Counted from the stretch's first letter, positions 14,717 to 19,640 are shown. The stretch: 64,000 nucleotides of DNA from Escherichia coli (GCF_036507355.1 NZ_AP027877.1); one strand, 5' to 3'. The notes: generated from the sequence alone by a model not told the origin. A program made the numbers and translations.

Positions 14717-15784
14717 ATGGATAAGAGTAAGCGCCATCTGGCGTGGTGGGTTGTCGGGTTACTGGCGGTGGCGGCTATCGTGGCGTGGTGGCTGTTGCGC
14801 CCGGCAGGTGTGCCGGAAGGCTTTGCTGTCAGTAATGGGCGCATTGAAGCGACGGAAGTGGATATTGCCAGCAAAATTGCCGGGCGTATCGACACCATTC
14901 TGGTGAAAGAAGGCCAGTTTGTTCGCGAAGGTGAAGTGCTGGCGAAGATGGATACTCGCGTGTTGCAGGAACAGCGACTGGAAGCCATCGCGCAAATCAA
15001 AGAAGCACAAAGTGCCGTTGCTGCCGCGCAGGCTTTGCTGGAGCAACGGCAAAGCGAAACTCGCGCCGCACAGTCGCTGGTCAATCAACGCCAGGCAGAA
15101 CTGGACTCCGTGGCTAAACGTCATACGCGTTCCCGCTCGCTCGCCCAACGAGGGGCTATTTCTGCGCAACAGCTGGATGACGACCGCGCCGCCGCTGAGA
15201 GCGCCCGAGCTGCGCTGGAATCAGCGAAAGCCCAGGTATCGGCTTCTAAAGCGGCTATAGAAGCGGCACGCACCAATATCATTCAGGCGCAAACCCGCGT
15301 CGAAGCCGCGCAAGCCACTGAACGGCGTATTGCCGCAGATATCGATGACAGTGAACTGAAAGCCCCGCGTGACGGACGCGTGCAGTATCGGGTTGCCGAG
15401 CCAGGGGAAGTGCTGGCGGCAGGCGGTCGGGTGCTGAATATGGTCGATCTCAGCGACGTCTATATGACCTTCTTCCTGCCAACCGAACAGGCGGGCACGC
15501 TGAAACTGGGCGGTGAAGCCCGGCTGATCCTCGATGCCGCGCCAGATCTGCGTATTCCTGCAACCATCAGTTTTGTCGCCAGTGTCGCCCAGTTCACGCC
15601 AAAAACCGTCGAAACCAGCGATGAACGGCTGAAACTGATGTTCCGCGTCAAAGCGCGTATCCCACCGGAATTACTCCAGCAGCATCTGGAATATGTCAAA
15701 ACCGGTTTACCGGGCGTAGCGTGGGTGCGGGTGAATGAAGAACTTCCGTGGCCTGACGACCTCGTGGTGAGGTTGCCGCAATGA
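14717..15784 (+). CDS. yhiI: HlyD-family membrane fusion protein
   Basis: 355-aa ORF with N-terminal membrane anchor and coiled-coil region; stop overlaps the rbbA start. Confidence 0.88.
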
Positions 15785-18516
15785 CGCATCTGGAACTGGT
15801 TCCCGTCCCGCCTGTCGCGCAACTGGCGGGCGTGAGCCAGCATTATGGAAAAACCGTTGCGCTGAACAATATCACTCTCGATATTCCGGCCCGTTGCATG
15901 GTCGGGCTGATTGGTCCGGATGGCGTCGGGAAGTCGAGTTTATTGTCACTGATTTCCGGTGCCCGCGTCATTGAGCAGGGCAATGTGGTGGTGCTGGGTG
16001 GCGATATGCACGACCCGAAGCATCGCCGAGACGTCTGCCCGCGCATCGCCTGGATGCCGCAGGGGCTGGGCAAAAACCTCTACCACACCTTGTCGGTGTA
16101 TGAAAATGTCGATTTTTTCGCTCGCCTGTTCGGTCACGATAAAGCGGAGCGGGAAGTGCGAATTAATGAGCTGCTGACCAGCACCGGGTTAGCACCGTTT
16201 CGCGATCGTCCGGCAGGTAAACTCTCCGGCGGGATGAAGCAAAAACTTGGGCTGTGCTGCGCGTTAATCCACGACCCGGAACTGTTGATCCTTGATGAGC
16301 CAACAACGGGGGTTGACCCGCTCTCCCGCGCCCAGTTCTGGGATCTGATCGACAGTATTCGCCAGCGGCAGAGCAATATGAGCGTGCTGGTCGCCACCGC
16401 CTATATGGAAGAGGCCGAACGCTTCGACTGGCTGGTAGCGATGAATGCCGGAGAAGTGCTGGCAACCGGCAGCGCCGAAGAGCTGCGGCAGCAAACGCAA
16501 AGCGCCACGCTGGAAGAAGCATTTATTAATCTGTTACCGCAAGCGCAACGCCAGGCGCATCAGGCGGTAGTGATCCCACCGTATCAACCTGAAAACGCAG
16601 AGATTGCCATCGAAGCGTGCGATCTGACCATGCGTTTTGGTTCCTTCGTTGCCGTTGATCACGTCAATTTCCGCATTCCACGCGGGGAGATTTTTGGATT
16701 CCTTGGTTCGAACGGCTGCGGTAAATCCACCACCATGAAAATGCTTACCGGACTGCTGCCCGCCAGCGAAGGTGAGGCGTGGCTATTTGGGCAACCGGTT
16801 GATCCAAAAGATATCGATACCCGCCGTCGTGTGGGCTATATGTCGCAGGCGTTTTCGCTCTATAACGAACTCACCGTGCGGCAAAACCTGGAGTTACATG
16901 CCCGTTTGTTTCACATCCCGGAAGCGGAAATTCCCGCGCGAGTGGCTGAAATGAGCGAGCGTTTTAAGCTCAACGACGTTGAAGATGTTCTGCCGGAGTC
17001 ATTGCCGCTCGGCATTCGCCAGCGGCTTTCGCTGGCGGTGGCGGTGATTCATCGCCCGGAGATGTTAATCCTCGATGAGCCTACTTCTGGTGTCGATCCG
17101 GTGGCGAGGGATATGTTCTGGCAGTTGATGGTCGATCTCTCGCGCCAGGACAAAGTGACTATCTTCATCTCCACCCACTTTATGAACGAAGCGGAACGTT
17201 GCGACCGCATCTCACTGATGCACGCCGGAAAAGTGCTTGCCAGCGGTACACCGCAGGAACTGGTTGAGAAACGCGGAGCCGCCAGTCTGGAAGAGGCATT
17301 TATCGCCTATTTGCAGGAAGCGGCAGGGCAGAGCAACGAAGCCGAAGCGCCGCCCGTGGTACACGACACCACCCACGCGCCGCGTCAGGGATTTAGCCTG
17401 CGCCGTCTGTTTAGCTACAGCCGCCGCGAAGCGCTGGAACTGCGACGCGATCCAGTACGTTCGACGCTGGCGCTGATGGGAACGGTGATCCTGATGCTGA
17501 TAATGGGTTACGGCATCAGTATGGATGTGGAAAACCTGCGCTTTGCGGTGCTCGACCGCGACCAGACCGTCAGTAGCCAGGCGTGGACACTCAACCTCTC
17601 CGGTTCCCGTTACTTTATCGAACAGCCGCCGCTCACCAGTTATGACGAGCTTGATCGTCGGATGCGTGCGGGCGATATCACGGTGGCAATTGAGATCCCT
17701 CCAAATTTCGGGCGTGATATCGCGCGTGGTACGCCTGTGGAACTCGGTGTCTGGATCGACGGAGCGATGCCCAGTCGTGCCGAAACGGTAAAAGGTTACG
17801 TGCAGGCTATGCACCAGAGCTGGCTACAGGATGTGGCGAGCCGACAATCCACACCCTCCAGCCAAAGCGGGCTGATGAACATTGAGACGCGCTATCGCTA
17901 TAACCCGGACGTAAAAAGCCTGCCAGCGATTGTTCCGGCGGTGATCCCGCTTCTGCTGATGATGATCCCGTCAATGCTAAGCGCCCTTAGCGTGGTGCGG
18001 GAAAAAGAGCTAGGGTCGATTATCAACCTTTACGTGACCCCTACCACCCGTAGCGAGTTTTTGCTTGGCAAACAGCTGCCGTACATCGCGCTGGGGATGC
18101 TGAACTTTTTCCTGCTCTGCGGCCTGTCGGTGTTTGTGTTTGGCGTACCGCATAAAGGCAGTTTCCTGACGCTTACCCTGGCGGCGCTGCTGTATATCAT
18201 CATCGCCACCGGAATGGGGCTGCTGATCTCCACCTTTATGAAAAGCCAGATTGCCGCCATTTTCGGTACGGCGATTATCACGTTGATCCCGGCGACACAG
18301 TTTTCCGGGATGATCGATCCGGTAGCTTCGCTGGAAGGGCCGGGACGTTGGATCGGCGAGGTTTACCCGACCAGTCATTTTCTAACTATCGCCCGCGGGA
18401 CGTTCTCGAAAGCGCTGGATCTGACTGATTTGTGGCAACTTTTTATCCCGTTGCTGATAGCCATCCCGCTGGTGATGGGCTTAAGCATCCTGCTGCTGAA
18501 AAAACAGGAGGGATGA
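15781..18516 (+). CDS. rbbA: ribosome-associated ATPase (ABC protein: two ATPase domains fused to an ABC-2 permease)
   Basis: 911-aa ORF with two Walker A motifs ([18 protein letters not shown]), two LSGG signatures and a C-terminal membrane domain. Confidence 0.9.
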
Positions 18517-19640
18517 TGCGCCATTTACGCAATATTTTTAATCTGGGTATCAAAGAGTTGCGCAGTCTGCTCGGTGATAAAGCGATGCTGACGCTGATTG
18601 TCTTCTCGTTTACGGTGTCGGTGTATTCGTCAGCGACCGTCACGCCAGGATCGTTGAACCTGGCACCGATCGCCATTGCCGATATGGATCAATCGCAGTT
18701 ATCGAATCGGATCGTTAACAGCTTCTATCGCCCGTGGTTTTTGCCACCGGAGATGATCACCGCCGATGAGATGGATGCCGGACTGGACGCCGGACGCTAT
18801 ACCTTCGCGATAAATATTCCGCCTAATTTTCAGCGTGATGTCCTCGCTGGACGCCAGCCAGATATTCAGGTGAACGTCGATGCCACGCGCATGAGCCAGG
18901 CATTTACCGGCAATGGGTATATCCAGAATATTATCAACGGTGAAGTGAACAGCTTTGTCGCGCGCTACCGCGATAACAGCGAACCGTTGGTATCGCTGGA
19001 AACCCGGATGCGCTTTAACCCGAACCTTGATCCCGCGTGGTTTGGCGGGGTGATGGCAATCATCAACAACATTACCATGCTGGCGATTGTATTGACCGGA
19101 TCGGCGCTGATCCGCGAGCGTGAACACGGCACGGTGGAACACTTACTGGTGATGCCGATAACGCCGTTTGAGATCATGATGGCAAAGGTCTGGTCGATGG
19201 GGCTGGTGGTGCTGGTGGTGTCGGGATTATCGCTGGTGCTGATGGTGAAAGGCGTACTGGGTGTACCGATTGAAGGCTCGATCCCGCTGTTTATGCTGGG
19301 CGTGGCGCTCAGTTTGTTTGCCACCACGTCAATCGGCATTTTTATGGGGACGATAGCGCGTTCAATGCCGCAACTGGGGCTGCTGGTGATTCTGGTGCTG
19401 CTGCCGCTGCAAATGCTTTCCGGTGGATCCACGCCGCGCGAAAGTATGCCGCAGATGGTGCAGGACATTATGCTGACCATGCCGACGACACACTTTGTTA
19501 GCCTCGCGCAGGCCATTCTCTACCGTGGTGCAGGATTCGAAATCGTCTGGCCGCAGTTCCTGACGCTGATGGCAATTGGCGGCGCGTTTTTCACCATTGC
19601 GCTGCTGCGATTCAGGAAGACGATTGGGACAATGGCGTAA
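18513..19640 (+). CDS. yhhJ: ABC-2 family inner-membrane permease
   Basis: ORF 18432..19640; likely start at the ATGATG overlapping the rbbA TGA (translational coupling); product starts MMRHLRNIF. Confidence 0.85.

What the first reader, a model, noticed from the sequence alone, without database searches (positions are those of the whole stretch)
14717..19640. yhiI-rbbA-yhhJ form a tightly coupled three-gene ABC module with overlapping stop/start codons
The yhiI stop overlaps the rbbA start and the rbbA TGA overlaps the ATGATG start of yhhJ, implying translational coupling of a membrane fusion protein, a fused double-ATPase/permease and a second ABC-2 permease. The architecture resembles an efflux or immunity-type exporter even though the ATPase is known as ribosome-associated; the substrate is not evident.
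Basis: partly seen in the sequence, partly recalled or inferred. Interest (0 to 1): 0.3.

Follow-up and report, generated by a model that had tools for sequence, protein, structure and literature searches.

The report
Known yhiI-rbbA-yhhJ ABC exporter operon
This is the already-named E. coli yhiI-rbbA-yhhJ operon, an ordinary, tightly packed three-gene set that most likely builds an envelope-spanning ABC export pump whose cargo is still unknown.

Summary
The yhiI stop overlaps the rbbA start (ATGA, 15781-15784). The rbbA TGA (18514-18516) overlaps the ATGATG start of yhhJ. Such overlaps are routine: 21 of 41 same-strand gene pairs in window 1-50000 overlap.

- YhiI is an EmrA-like periplasmic adaptor.
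- RbbA is two ATPase domains fused to an ABC-2 membrane domain.
- YhhJ is a second ABC-2 membrane domain.

The set is a gene-for-gene paralogue of E. coli ybhGFSR, with ybhF and ybhS fused. The gene order and the tight junctions are kept in about 80 species from several phyla. An outer-membrane channel gene is the only recurrent neighbour.

RbbA has no ABC-F features, so the "ribosome-associated" label fits its sequence poorly. The main in-vivo paper behind that label was retracted in 2025.

The literature already names the operon and its promoter (14356-14383).

Verdict: real, already known, substrate unresolved, low interest.

The parts
14356..14383 (+). Sigma-70 promoter TAGACA-16-TACTAT with an upstream TG (extended -10)
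   Evidence: Consensus scan. The same hexamers are assigned to the 'yhiI-rbbA-yhhJ' operon by genomic SELEX in PMC3946193.
14390..14716 (+). 5' leader of the transcript. The start at 14390 is inferred, not mapped here.
   Evidence: The gene-specific part of the 'yhiI fwd' primer for the 5'UTR+ORF reporter in PMC7815308 matches window 14390-14415, 6 nt after the -10 hexamer.
14541..14654 (+). yhiY, a 37-aa upstream mini-ORF in the leader
   Evidence: Pfam PF23514 YhiY, 103 bits. Annotated in RefSeq. Listed as the uORF pair 'yhiY-yhiI' with a nearby RNA 3' end in PMC7815308. 86% identical in E. albertii and degraded in Citrobacter werkmanii.
14652..14674 (+). RNA 3' ends in the leader, consistent with premature termination. 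They were mapped in K-12 at -65 and -43 from the yhiI start and transferred here by offset.
   Evidence: Supplement of PMC7815308. The -43 end is flagged Rho-dependent and 'uORF'. The yhiI reporter was more than 2-fold higher in rhoR66S.
14717..15784 (+). yhiI, the periplasmic adaptor (membrane fusion protein). It has an N-terminal membrane helix, a lipoyl domain, a long alpha-hairpin (helices 81-144 and 150-211) and a beta-barrel domain. R138/L142/S149 lie at the hairpin tip.
   Evidence: Pfam/NCBIfam. AlphaFold model with pLDDT 95. Best fold matches are EmrA in EmrAB-TolC and MacA in MacAB-TolC. Tip motif conservation.
15781..15784 (+). Junction 1: ATGA, the rbbA start overlapping the yhiI stop. 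GAGG at 15769-15772 lies 8 nt upstream of the ATG.
   Evidence: Sequence. The -4 overlap is found in 41 of 67 related loci.
15781..18516 (+). rbbA (yhiH). ATPase domain 1 is about 15814-16530, ATPase domain 2 about 16609-17310 and the ABC-2 membrane domain about 17395-18513.
   Evidence: Pfam 2x ABC_tran plus ABC2_membrane_3. NF033858 equivalog, 1594 bits. Motif reading. Similarity to YbhF and YbhS.
18506..18518 (+). Junction 2: AGGAGG (18506-18511), then ATGATG (18513-18518) overlapping the rbbA TGA (18514-18516)
   Evidence: Sequence. An SD-like 4-mer lies before the yhhJ start in 48 of 63 relatives. CAG-GAG codon choice is enriched, p about 3e-6, not corrected for shared ancestry.
18516..19640 (+). 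yhhJ, the second ABC-2 membrane subunit (374 aa; an alternative start at 18513 gives 375 aa). It has an extracytoplasmic domain between the first and second membrane helices.
   Evidence: Pfam ABC2_membrane_3. AlphaFold model with pLDDT 85. Fold matches are ABCH-9C, NosY, ABCA and ABCG. Closest E. coli paralogue is YbhR.

Best explanation
The three genes, together with the upstream promoter and the yhiY leader, form one transcription unit that most likely encodes a single envelope export machine.

Composition (inferred from domains and paralogy):
- RbbA supplies both ATPase domains and one membrane domain.
- YhhJ supplies the second, diverged membrane domain. Together the two polypeptides make one complete, asymmetric ABC transporter of the ABC-2 / type V exporter fold.
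- One ATP site is consensus: the domain 2 P-loop, Walker B and switch His, paired with the domain 1 LSGGM signature.
- The other ATP site is degenerate: the domain 1 switch His is replaced by Tyr, and the domain 2 signature reads LPLGI.
- YhiI is anchored in the inner membrane by one helix. It is inferred to assemble around the transporter and to reach an outer-membrane channel through its roughly 95 Å hairpin. In E. coli that channel is presumably TolC, since no channel gene is adjacent.

Transport step (inferred): ATP hydrolysis at the consensus site would drive expulsion of a substrate taken from the inner membrane or the periplasm. The substrate is unknown. An amphipathic or lipid-like molecule, or a xenobiotic, is the best guess.

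Expression:
- A constitutive sigma-70 promoter is shown in the literature.
- Output is throttled by Rho-dependent early termination around the yhiY mini-ORF, also shown in the literature.
- The stop/start overlaps plus internal Shine-Dalgarno sites let ribosomes pass from yhiI to rbbA to yhhJ, so the partner subunits are made together. This last step is inferred, not tested.
For: Domain content is above curated cut-offs.

Paralogy to ybhG/F/S/R is collinear:
- RbbA N-half to YbhF, 40-41% identity.
- RbbA C-part to YbhS, 168 bits, against 118 bits to YbhR.
- YhhJ to YbhR, 114 bits, against 84 bits to YbhS.
- YhiI to YbhG, 30% identity.
- The two membrane domains of the module are only 28% identical to each other.

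The same degenerate and consensus motif pattern is present in 11 full-length relatives down to 32% identity and in YbhF.

Gene order and tight junctions are kept in about 80 species, with SD-type codon choice at the rbbA end.

OEP (TolC-like) genes are the only recurrent neighbour: 10 of 59 directly upstream and 2 of 64 downstream.

Structure predictions:
- The YhiI model (pLDDT 95) best matches EmrA and MacA as seen in assembled TolC pumps. R138-x3-L142-x6-S149 at the hairpin tip is conserved in 65, 66 and 50 of 69 sequences. It aligns with the same pattern in TriA and MexJ.
- The YhhJ model matches the ceramide-bound ABCH-9C, ABCA lipid transporters, NosY, KpsM and ABCG.

Other support:
- RbbA-mCherry is spread over the membrane (PMC6788730).
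- The operon name and promoter are published, as is the Rho/uORF leader.
- The unit is present once, on the chromosome, in 5413 of 5426 complete E. coli genomes.
Against: - I found no transport substrate or clear deletion phenotype in the searchable literature.
- No structure of any of the three proteins has been solved.
- E. coli has no adjacent outer-membrane channel gene, so dependence on TolC is an assumption.
- The strong AGGAGG before yhhJ could support independent initiation, so true coupling is unproven.
- A truncated soluble RbbA binds ribosomes and modestly stimulates in-vitro translation, 1.3- to 2.1-fold (PMC12096078). The exporter model does not explain this.
- An adaptor hexamer would need more YhiI than RbbA or YhhJ. 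Simple 1:1 coupling does not provide that ratio.
Confidence: 0.75

Rival explanations
1. RbbA is primarily a translation factor. It would be a ribosome-bound ATPase that helps release E-site tRNA, and its position between an adaptor gene and a permease gene would say little about its real job.
For: Earlier biochemistry from the Ganoza laboratory, as summarised in PMC12096078. Truncated RbbA lacking the membrane domain raised yields of difficult peptides 1.3- to 2.1-fold in a reconstituted system and appeared to compete with ABC-F proteins. The RefSeq product name keeps 'ribosome-associated'.
Against: - The membrane domain is fused in frame and conserved in all full-length relatives.
- The protein is in the membrane in vivo.
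- Adaptor and permease partners are kept beside it across phyla.
- The ATPase domains belong to the DrrA/ABCA transporter class: TIGR01188 scores 391 bits against a cut-off of 312, and the best PDB relatives are ABCA3, ABCA4 and ABCA1.
- There is no ABC-F linker domain hit and only about 25 residues separate the two ATPase domains.
- The in-vitro effects are small and were obtained only with a truncated protein.
- The only in-vivo paper linking RbbA to ribosomes and YhjD was retracted in 2025.
Confidence: 0.08
2. RbbA has two functions. It would be a genuine membrane exporter whose cytoplasmic ATPase pair also contacts ribosomes, linking export to translation. Examples would be sensing ribosome-targeting drugs or exporting a freshly made peptide.
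For: This reading reconciles the architecture with the in-vitro ribosome effects. SNPs in rbbA were associated with natural resistance to microcin C, a translation inhibitor, in a genome-wide association study.
Against: - There is no direct evidence.
- The association is a single statistical hit among many.
- ABC ATPase domains are sticky and can show non-specific nucleotide-dependent effects.
- No peptide or biosynthetic gene is conserved next to the module.
Confidence: 0.1
3. The overlaps only reflect compact operon packing. Each gene would be translated from its own ribosome-binding site, with no functional coupling.
For: Overlaps occur in 21 of 41 same-strand gene pairs in this window. yhhJ has a perfect AGGAGG and rbbA has a GAGG at good spacing. 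Many relatives have short positive gaps of 1-7 nt at junction 2 rather than overlaps.
Against: Spacing stays within a few nucleotides across very distant species. The SD sits inside the last codons of rbbA, where only a terminating or unwinding ribosome would expose it. This is an argument, not a test.
Confidence: 0.3

Closest known systems
E. coli YbhGFSR (adaptor YbhG, double ATPase YbhF, ABC-2 permeases YbhS and YbhR)
   Same: The similarity is collinear, gene for gene. Both have the same degenerate and consensus ATP-site pattern (STSY and LPLGF in YbhF). Both have tight junctions; ybhGFSR has -8, -8 and +10. Both have an adaptor gene first.
   Different: In rbbA the ATPase gene and the first permease gene are fused into one ORF. 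RbbA lacks the roughly 60-100 residue insert between the ATPase domains that YbhF and the more distant relatives carry. ybhGFSR has an adjacent TetR-type regulator, cecR, whereas this operon has a uORF/Rho leader instead. Drug substrates are reported for YbhFSR and none for this system.
EmrAB-TolC and MacAB-TolC tripartite pumps (adaptor component)
   Same: The YhiI model has the same build as EmrA: a membrane anchor helix, a lipoyl domain, a long hairpin and a beta-barrel, with no membrane-proximal domain. EmrA and MacA in assembled pumps are the best fold matches. An R-x3-L-x6-S pattern sits at the hairpin tip.
   Different: The inner-membrane partner is an ABC-2 (type V) heterodimer. It is neither an MFS transporter (EmrB) nor a MacB/FtsX-type ABC transporter. 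Sequence identity to these adaptors is only about 18-20%.
Type V ABC exporters with an extracytoplasmic domain: insect ABCH-9C and human ABCA1/3/4/7
   Same: These are the best sequence and fold matches of YhhJ and of the RbbA ATPase domains in the PDB. They share the layout of first membrane helix, outside domain, then five more helices. The ABCH-9C and ABCA matches carry lipids.
   Different: They are eukaryotic single-chain or homodimeric proteins with no periplasmic adaptor and no outer-membrane channel. TM-scores are moderate (about 0.58 normalised to the query). A lipid substrate for YhhJ is only a suggestion.
ABC-F translation factors (EttA, Uup, YbiT, YheS)
   Same: They have two ATPase domains on one chain. 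RbbA has been used alongside them in vitro.
   Different: ABC-F proteins are soluble and carry a long inter-domain linker that reaches the tRNA. RbbA has a membrane domain, a short linker, no hit to the ABC-F linker family, and transporter-class ATPase domains.

Membership tests
RbbA equivalog (NCBIfam NF033858) | Whole-protein score above the curated cut-off of 1050 bits | tested here: met
   1593.8 bits over profile positions 1-908 of 909.
ABC-2 / type V ABC exporter | ABC-2 membrane domain in the permease part(s) | tested here: met
   PF12698 scores 136 bits in RbbA residues 569-903 and 119 bits in YhhJ, both above the 31.6-bit cut-off.
ABC-2 / type V ABC exporter | Membrane-domain fold like ABCG, ABCA, Wzm or TarG | tested here: met
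   The YhhJ model (pLDDT 85) matches ABCH-9C (E 2e-11), NosY, ABCA3/4/7/1, ABCG25, KpsM and TarG.
ABC-2 / type V ABC exporter | Two ATPase domains with Walker A, Walker B and signature motifs able to form at least one competent ATP site | tested here: met
   Domain 2 has [13 protein letters not shown] and TH. Domain 1 has LSGGM. These residues are invariant in alignment A1. The second site is degenerate, with ATAY and LPLGI.
Membrane fusion protein / periplasmic adaptor (HlyD family) | Lipoyl, alpha-hairpin and beta-barrel domains | tested here: met
   HlyD_3, HlyD_D23 and Biotin_lipoyl_2 are above their cut-offs. The model shows helices 81-144 and 150-211 flanked by beta domains. EmrA and MacA are the top fold hits.
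Tripartite efflux pump (inner-membrane transporter + adaptor + outer-membrane channel) | A dedicated or shared outer-membrane channel | tested here: inconclusive
   No OEP gene is adjacent in this window. An OEP gene is directly upstream of the adaptor gene in 10 of 59 relatives and downstream in 2 of 64. Use of TolC in E. coli is assumed.
Tripartite efflux pump (inner-membrane transporter + adaptor + outer-membrane channel) | Hairpin-tip R-x3-L-x6-S motif. Its role in contacting the channel is from my own knowledge of AcrA/MacA work. | tested here: met
   R138, L142 and S149 are present and conserved in 65, 66 and 50 of 69 sequences. They align to RQKALLPKGYTS in TriA and RYRTLLDRNLVS in MexJ.
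Tripartite efflux pump (inner-membrane transporter + adaptor + outer-membrane channel) | Physical assembly and substrate efflux | not testable with these tools
   This needs pull-downs or cryo-EM and transport assays.
ABC-F ribosome-binding ATPases | Soluble protein with no membrane domain | tested here: not met
   An ABC-2 membrane domain is fused at residues 569-903. The fusion protein is membrane-located.
ABC-F ribosome-binding ATPases | Long inter-domain linker (Pfam ABC_tran_Xtn / P-site tRNA interaction motif) | tested here: not met
   No such family appears among the 14 Pfam hits at E <= 0.01. Only about 25 residues lie between domain 1 (ending near 250) and domain 2 (starting near 277).
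Translationally coupled operon | Stop/start overlap or near-contact on one strand with no room for a promoter or terminator | tested here: met
   Overlaps are 4 nt and 1 (or 4) nt. No promoter-like site lies inside the genes, and terminator-like hits are at the chance level, 9 found against 6.7 +/- 3.4 expected.
Translationally coupled operon | Downstream translation depends on upstream translation | not testable with these tools
   This needs reporter fusions with upstream nonsense mutations.
Anti-phage defence systems (PADLOC) | A specific match to a defence-system protein model | tested here: not met
   The only hits are generic ABC-ATPase similarity (mad3, AriA and others) and a coiled-coil match to JetC at E 3e-4. 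YhhJ and YhiY have none.

The most novel reading that the evidence does not exclude
The exporter and the ribosome story could both be true. The cytoplasmic ATPase pair of membrane-bound RbbA would dock on ribosomes, so that export is tied to translation. Two versions are possible: relief from ribosome-targeting compounds such as microcin C, or hand-over of a nascent product. The yhiY mini-ORF would act as the ribosome-based sensor that lifts Rho termination when the substrate is present.
Probability: 0.06. Interest if true: 0.65.

Novelty: already known. Interest (0 to 1): 0.15.

Why it matters
As a finding it changes little. The genes, the operon, the promoter and the leader are already described, and stop/start overlaps are commonplace.

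Its residual value is as a reminder that one of the few E. coli ABC export systems still has no known cargo. This system is present in 5413 of 5426 complete genomes and is conserved across phyla. Its product name, "ribosome-associated ATPase", rests on work with a truncated protein and on a paper that has since been retracted.

The features assembled here give concrete handles for finding the substrate:
- one competent and one degenerate ATP site;
- an EmrA-like adaptor with a channel-contact motif;
- resemblance of the membrane domain to lipid exporters;
- a leader that keeps expression low.

Tried and rejected
1. Programmed -1 frameshift at G_GGA_TGA, fusing RbbA to YhhJ. A -1 slip would enter the yhhJ frame, and databases hold RbbA-YhhJ "fusion" proteins of 1283-1286 aa. 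However, those fusions come from different indels at different places in the last ~90 nt of rbbA and are nearly all singletons. The slippery sequence is kept only in Escherichia and, partly, in Citrobacter. Rejected.

2. Substrate from gene neighbourhood. I scanned the nearest and second-nearest flanking ORFs of about 60 related loci against Pfam. Only OEP recurs. Single neighbours include LpxR, a lipid A acyltransferase, phospholipase A1 and a BrkB/YhjD-family protein. These are suggestive of envelope lipids but are one locus each, which is too thin to use.

3. Defence or immunity system. PADLOC gave only generic ATPase or coiled-coil matches.

4. Internal promoters or terminators that would split the operon. 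None were found above chance. The consensus scan is weak evidence either way.

5. Solved structures of the three proteins. None exist.

6. Literature search for phenotypes. I found only incidental mentions: transcriptome lists, a deletion in paraquat-evolved strains, one association hit, and a correlation with ciprofloxacin heteroresistance in Salmonella. The original RbbA papers are not in the searchable library.

7. The broad protein search returned only near-identical E. coli sequences. Diversity came instead from the representative-library search.

Technical note: gene calling in the flanks was a simple longest-ORF heuristic. Some minus-strand ORFs were trimmed at the wrong end by one codon. 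This does not affect the family counts.

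
Full report
**What is in the sequence**

- yhiI is 14717-15784, rbbA is 15781-18516 and yhhJ ends at 19640.
- The first junction is ATGA, a 4-nt overlap.
- The second junction is AGGAGGgATGATG. The rbbA TGA is 18514-18516. In-frame ATGs lie at 18513 and 18516, and RefSeq uses 18516.
- The region is at most 98.3% identical to complete E. coli chromosomes.
- The stretch 14356-19640 is present once, on the chromosome, in 5413 of 5426 complete genomes.

**Is it unusual?**

No. The annotation of strain A30 is collinear with window 1-50000. Of its 41 same-strand neighbouring gene pairs, 21 overlap: ten by 4 nt and four by 1 nt. The nikABCDE operon has -1, -4, -1, -4 at its junctions. 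The overlaps mark an operon but do not make it special.

**What the proteins are**

- YhiI matches HlyD-family adaptor models.
- RbbA has two ABC ATPase domains followed by an ABC-2 membrane domain. It scores 1594 bits on the RbbA equivalog model, whose cut-off is 1050.
- YhhJ is an ABC-2 membrane protein.
- No structure of any of the three has been solved. The closest solved relatives of the ATPase domains are ABCA3, ABCA4 and ABCA1.

**Paralogy to ybhGFSR**

Comparison with E. coli K-12 ybhGFSR shows collinear paralogy.
- The RbbA N-half matches YbhF at 40-41% identity.
- The RbbA membrane part matches YbhS better than YbhR, 168 against 118 bits.
- YhhJ matches YbhR better than YbhS, 114 against 84 bits.
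- YhiI matches YbhG at 30% identity.

So rbbA corresponds to ybhF fused to ybhS, and yhhJ corresponds to ybhR. The two membrane domains of the module are only 28% identical to each other. That fits a fixed heterodimer.

**ATP sites**

- Domain 1 has a normal Walker A, LSGGM signature and Walker B. Its switch histidine is replaced (ATAY).
- Domain 2 has normal Walker A, Walker B and TH. Its signature is LPLGI.
- ATP sites form between the P-loop side of one domain and the signature of the other. This gives one degenerate site and one consensus site.
- The pattern holds in 11 full-length relatives down to 32% identity and in YbhF.

**Conservation of the module**

A representative-library search gave diverse full-length relatives. 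An alignment of them retrieved 80 loci from one genome per species. A script located the three genes and their junctions in these loci.
- The order adaptor - RbbA - YhhJ is kept wherever the contig allows. The taxa are alpha-, beta-, gamma- and delta-proteobacteria, an Alistipes MAG, a Lentisphaerae MAG and Corallococcus.
- Junction 1 is a 4-nt overlap in 41 of 67 loci.
- Junction 2 lies between -4 and +7 in 72 of 79 loci.
- The RbbA C-terminus is typically [KR]KQE. Its Gln-Glu pair is written CAG-GAG in 37 of 49 cases, against 21 expected from each gene's own codon usage. The binomial p is about 3e-6 and is not corrected for shared ancestry.
- An SD-like 4-mer precedes the yhhJ start in 48 of 63 loci.

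This is good indirect support for a conserved initiation signal embedded in the end of rbbA.

**Neighbours**

The only family that recurs beside the module is the outer-membrane efflux protein family. It is found directly upstream of the adaptor gene in 10 of 59 loci and downstream in 2 of 64. Second-nearest neighbours show nothing consistent. The conserved unit is therefore the three genes, sometimes with a channel gene. Context does not reveal the substrate.

**Structure predictions**

YhiI (pLDDT 95):
- It has a membrane helix, a lipoyl domain, two helices of about 63 residues forming a hairpin, and a beta-barrel domain.
- The best fold matches are EmrA in the EmrAB-TolC assembly and MacA in MacAB-TolC.
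- The hairpin tip carries R138-x3-L142-x6-S149, which is strongly conserved.
- The motif aligns with the same pattern in TriA and MexJ.
- Its role in contacting the outer-membrane channel comes from my own knowledge of AcrA/MacA studies.

YhhJ (pLDDT 85):
- It has an outside domain between its first and second membrane helices.
- It best matches the insect lipid exporter ABCH-9C, then NosY, ABCA, ABCG, KpsM and TarG.
- These matches indicate the type V ABC exporter fold.

**The ribosome label**

RbbA lacks the defining ABC-F features. It has no linker-domain hit, only about 25 residues separate its ATPase domains, and a membrane domain is fused to them. RbbA-mCherry is membrane-distributed. 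[quoted passage not shown] The 2011 paper that tied RbbA to ribosomes, YhjD and respiration in vivo was retracted in 2025 over image concerns. A primary role in translation is therefore poorly supported. A side activity cannot be excluded.

- The consensus scan finds TAGACA-16-TACTAT at 14356-14383. The same hexamers are published as the constitutive promoter of the "yhiI-rbbA-yhhJ" operon.
- Between the promoter and yhiI lies yhiY, a 37-aa mini-ORF at 14541-14654.
- Term-seq work lists yhiY-yhiI among uORFs followed by an RNA 3' end. It also shows that a yhiI reporter rises more than 2-fold in a Rho mutant.
- The supplement of that study places 3' ends 65 and 43 nt before yhiI, which corresponds to window positions of about 14652 and 14674. 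It also places a Rho-sensitive site about 547 nt inside yhiI.
- yhiY is conserved in E. albertii but not beyond Escherichia.

**Conclusion**

YhiH/YhhJ is listed among the predicted ABC drug pumps of K-12. The most likely mechanism is an adaptor-linked, asymmetric ABC-2 exporter that feeds an outer-membrane channel, expressed from one leader-attenuated transcript with closely linked translation. The substrate, the use of TolC and actual coupling remain to be tested.

Noticed in passing
window 18432-18516; proteins P0001-P0010: Public databases hold RbbA-YhhJ single-chain 'fusions' of 1283-1286 aa from E. coli. They arise from different small indels in the last ~90 nt of rbbA, where the yhhJ frame is already open. 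Nearly all are singletons, so they are probably sequencing errors or rare mutants. They show that one base change would create a full single-chain transporter.
   Followed up: partly
window 14541-14654 and about 14652-14674: yhiY mini-ORF in the operon leader, with published Rho-dependent RNA 3' ends at and just after its stop codon. It is restricted to Escherichia: intact in E. albertii (L003) and broken in Citrobacter werkmanii (L004). It may be a substrate-sensing attenuator like mdtU-mdtJI.
   Followed up: partly
window 19713-20344: A hicA/hicB toxin-antitoxin pair with a 4-nt overlap lies directly after yhhJ. It has its own promoter-like site (TTGACT-16-TACTAT, 19652-19679) and short repeats (tgatgtcata / gtgaagtcata) that look like an operator. 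No clear terminator separates it from yhhJ; the only terminator-like hairpin (19564-19581) lies inside the yhhJ coding sequence.
   Followed up: no
window 20394-26003, minus strand: A sugar-utilisation island (class II aldolase, HPr-like protein, FGGY kinase, PTS IIC/IIB/IIA, GntR regulator) lies between hicAB and nikR. From my own knowledge, K-12 carries rhsB and neighbouring genes at this position.
   Followed up: no
window 31635-47240, minus strand: acpT is followed by about 17 genes of a fatty-acid/polyketide-like pathway: ketosynthases, a chain-length factor, two carrier proteins, dehydratases, a reductase, a glycosyltransferase, an acyltransferase, an MMPL transporter, a LolA-like protein and a methyltransferase. 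It resembles the aryl-polyene / 'O-island 138' type cluster that K-12 lacks (own knowledge).
   Followed up: no
window 10857-12467 and 12729-14351: Two tandem DUF4049 paralogues (yhiJ/yhiL-like) lie directly upstream of the operon promoter. The promoter starts 5 nt after the second one's stop codon.
   Followed up: no
whole window: No complete E. coli genome in the collection is more than 98.3% identical over the operon. Yet RbbA proteins 100% identical to the window's are on record under both E. coli and Shigella flexneri names (P0011, P0012, P0014). The source may be a Shigella or a less-sampled Escherichia lineage.
   Followed up: no
alignment A1, columns about 277-347; YbhF residues about 226-286: More distant RbbA-like proteins (about 33-38% identity to RbbA; 966-1011 aa) and YbhF carry an extra segment of about 60-100 residues between the two ATPase domains. 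E. coli RbbA and its closer relatives lack it.
   Followed up: no
loci L003-L082, downstream neighbours: Single loci have LpxR, a lipid A acyltransferase, outer-membrane phospholipase A1 or a BrkB/YhjD-family gene next to the module. These are envelope-lipid themes but occur once each. The YhjD-family case is curious given the retracted RbbA-YhjD interaction claim.
   Followed up: partly
literature (PMC8277102): A major review discusses YbhFSR under the MacB/FtsX family. Here its paralogues RbbA and YhhJ, and by similarity YbhS and YbhR, match ABC-2 membrane families and the type V fold, not FtsX.
   Followed up: partly
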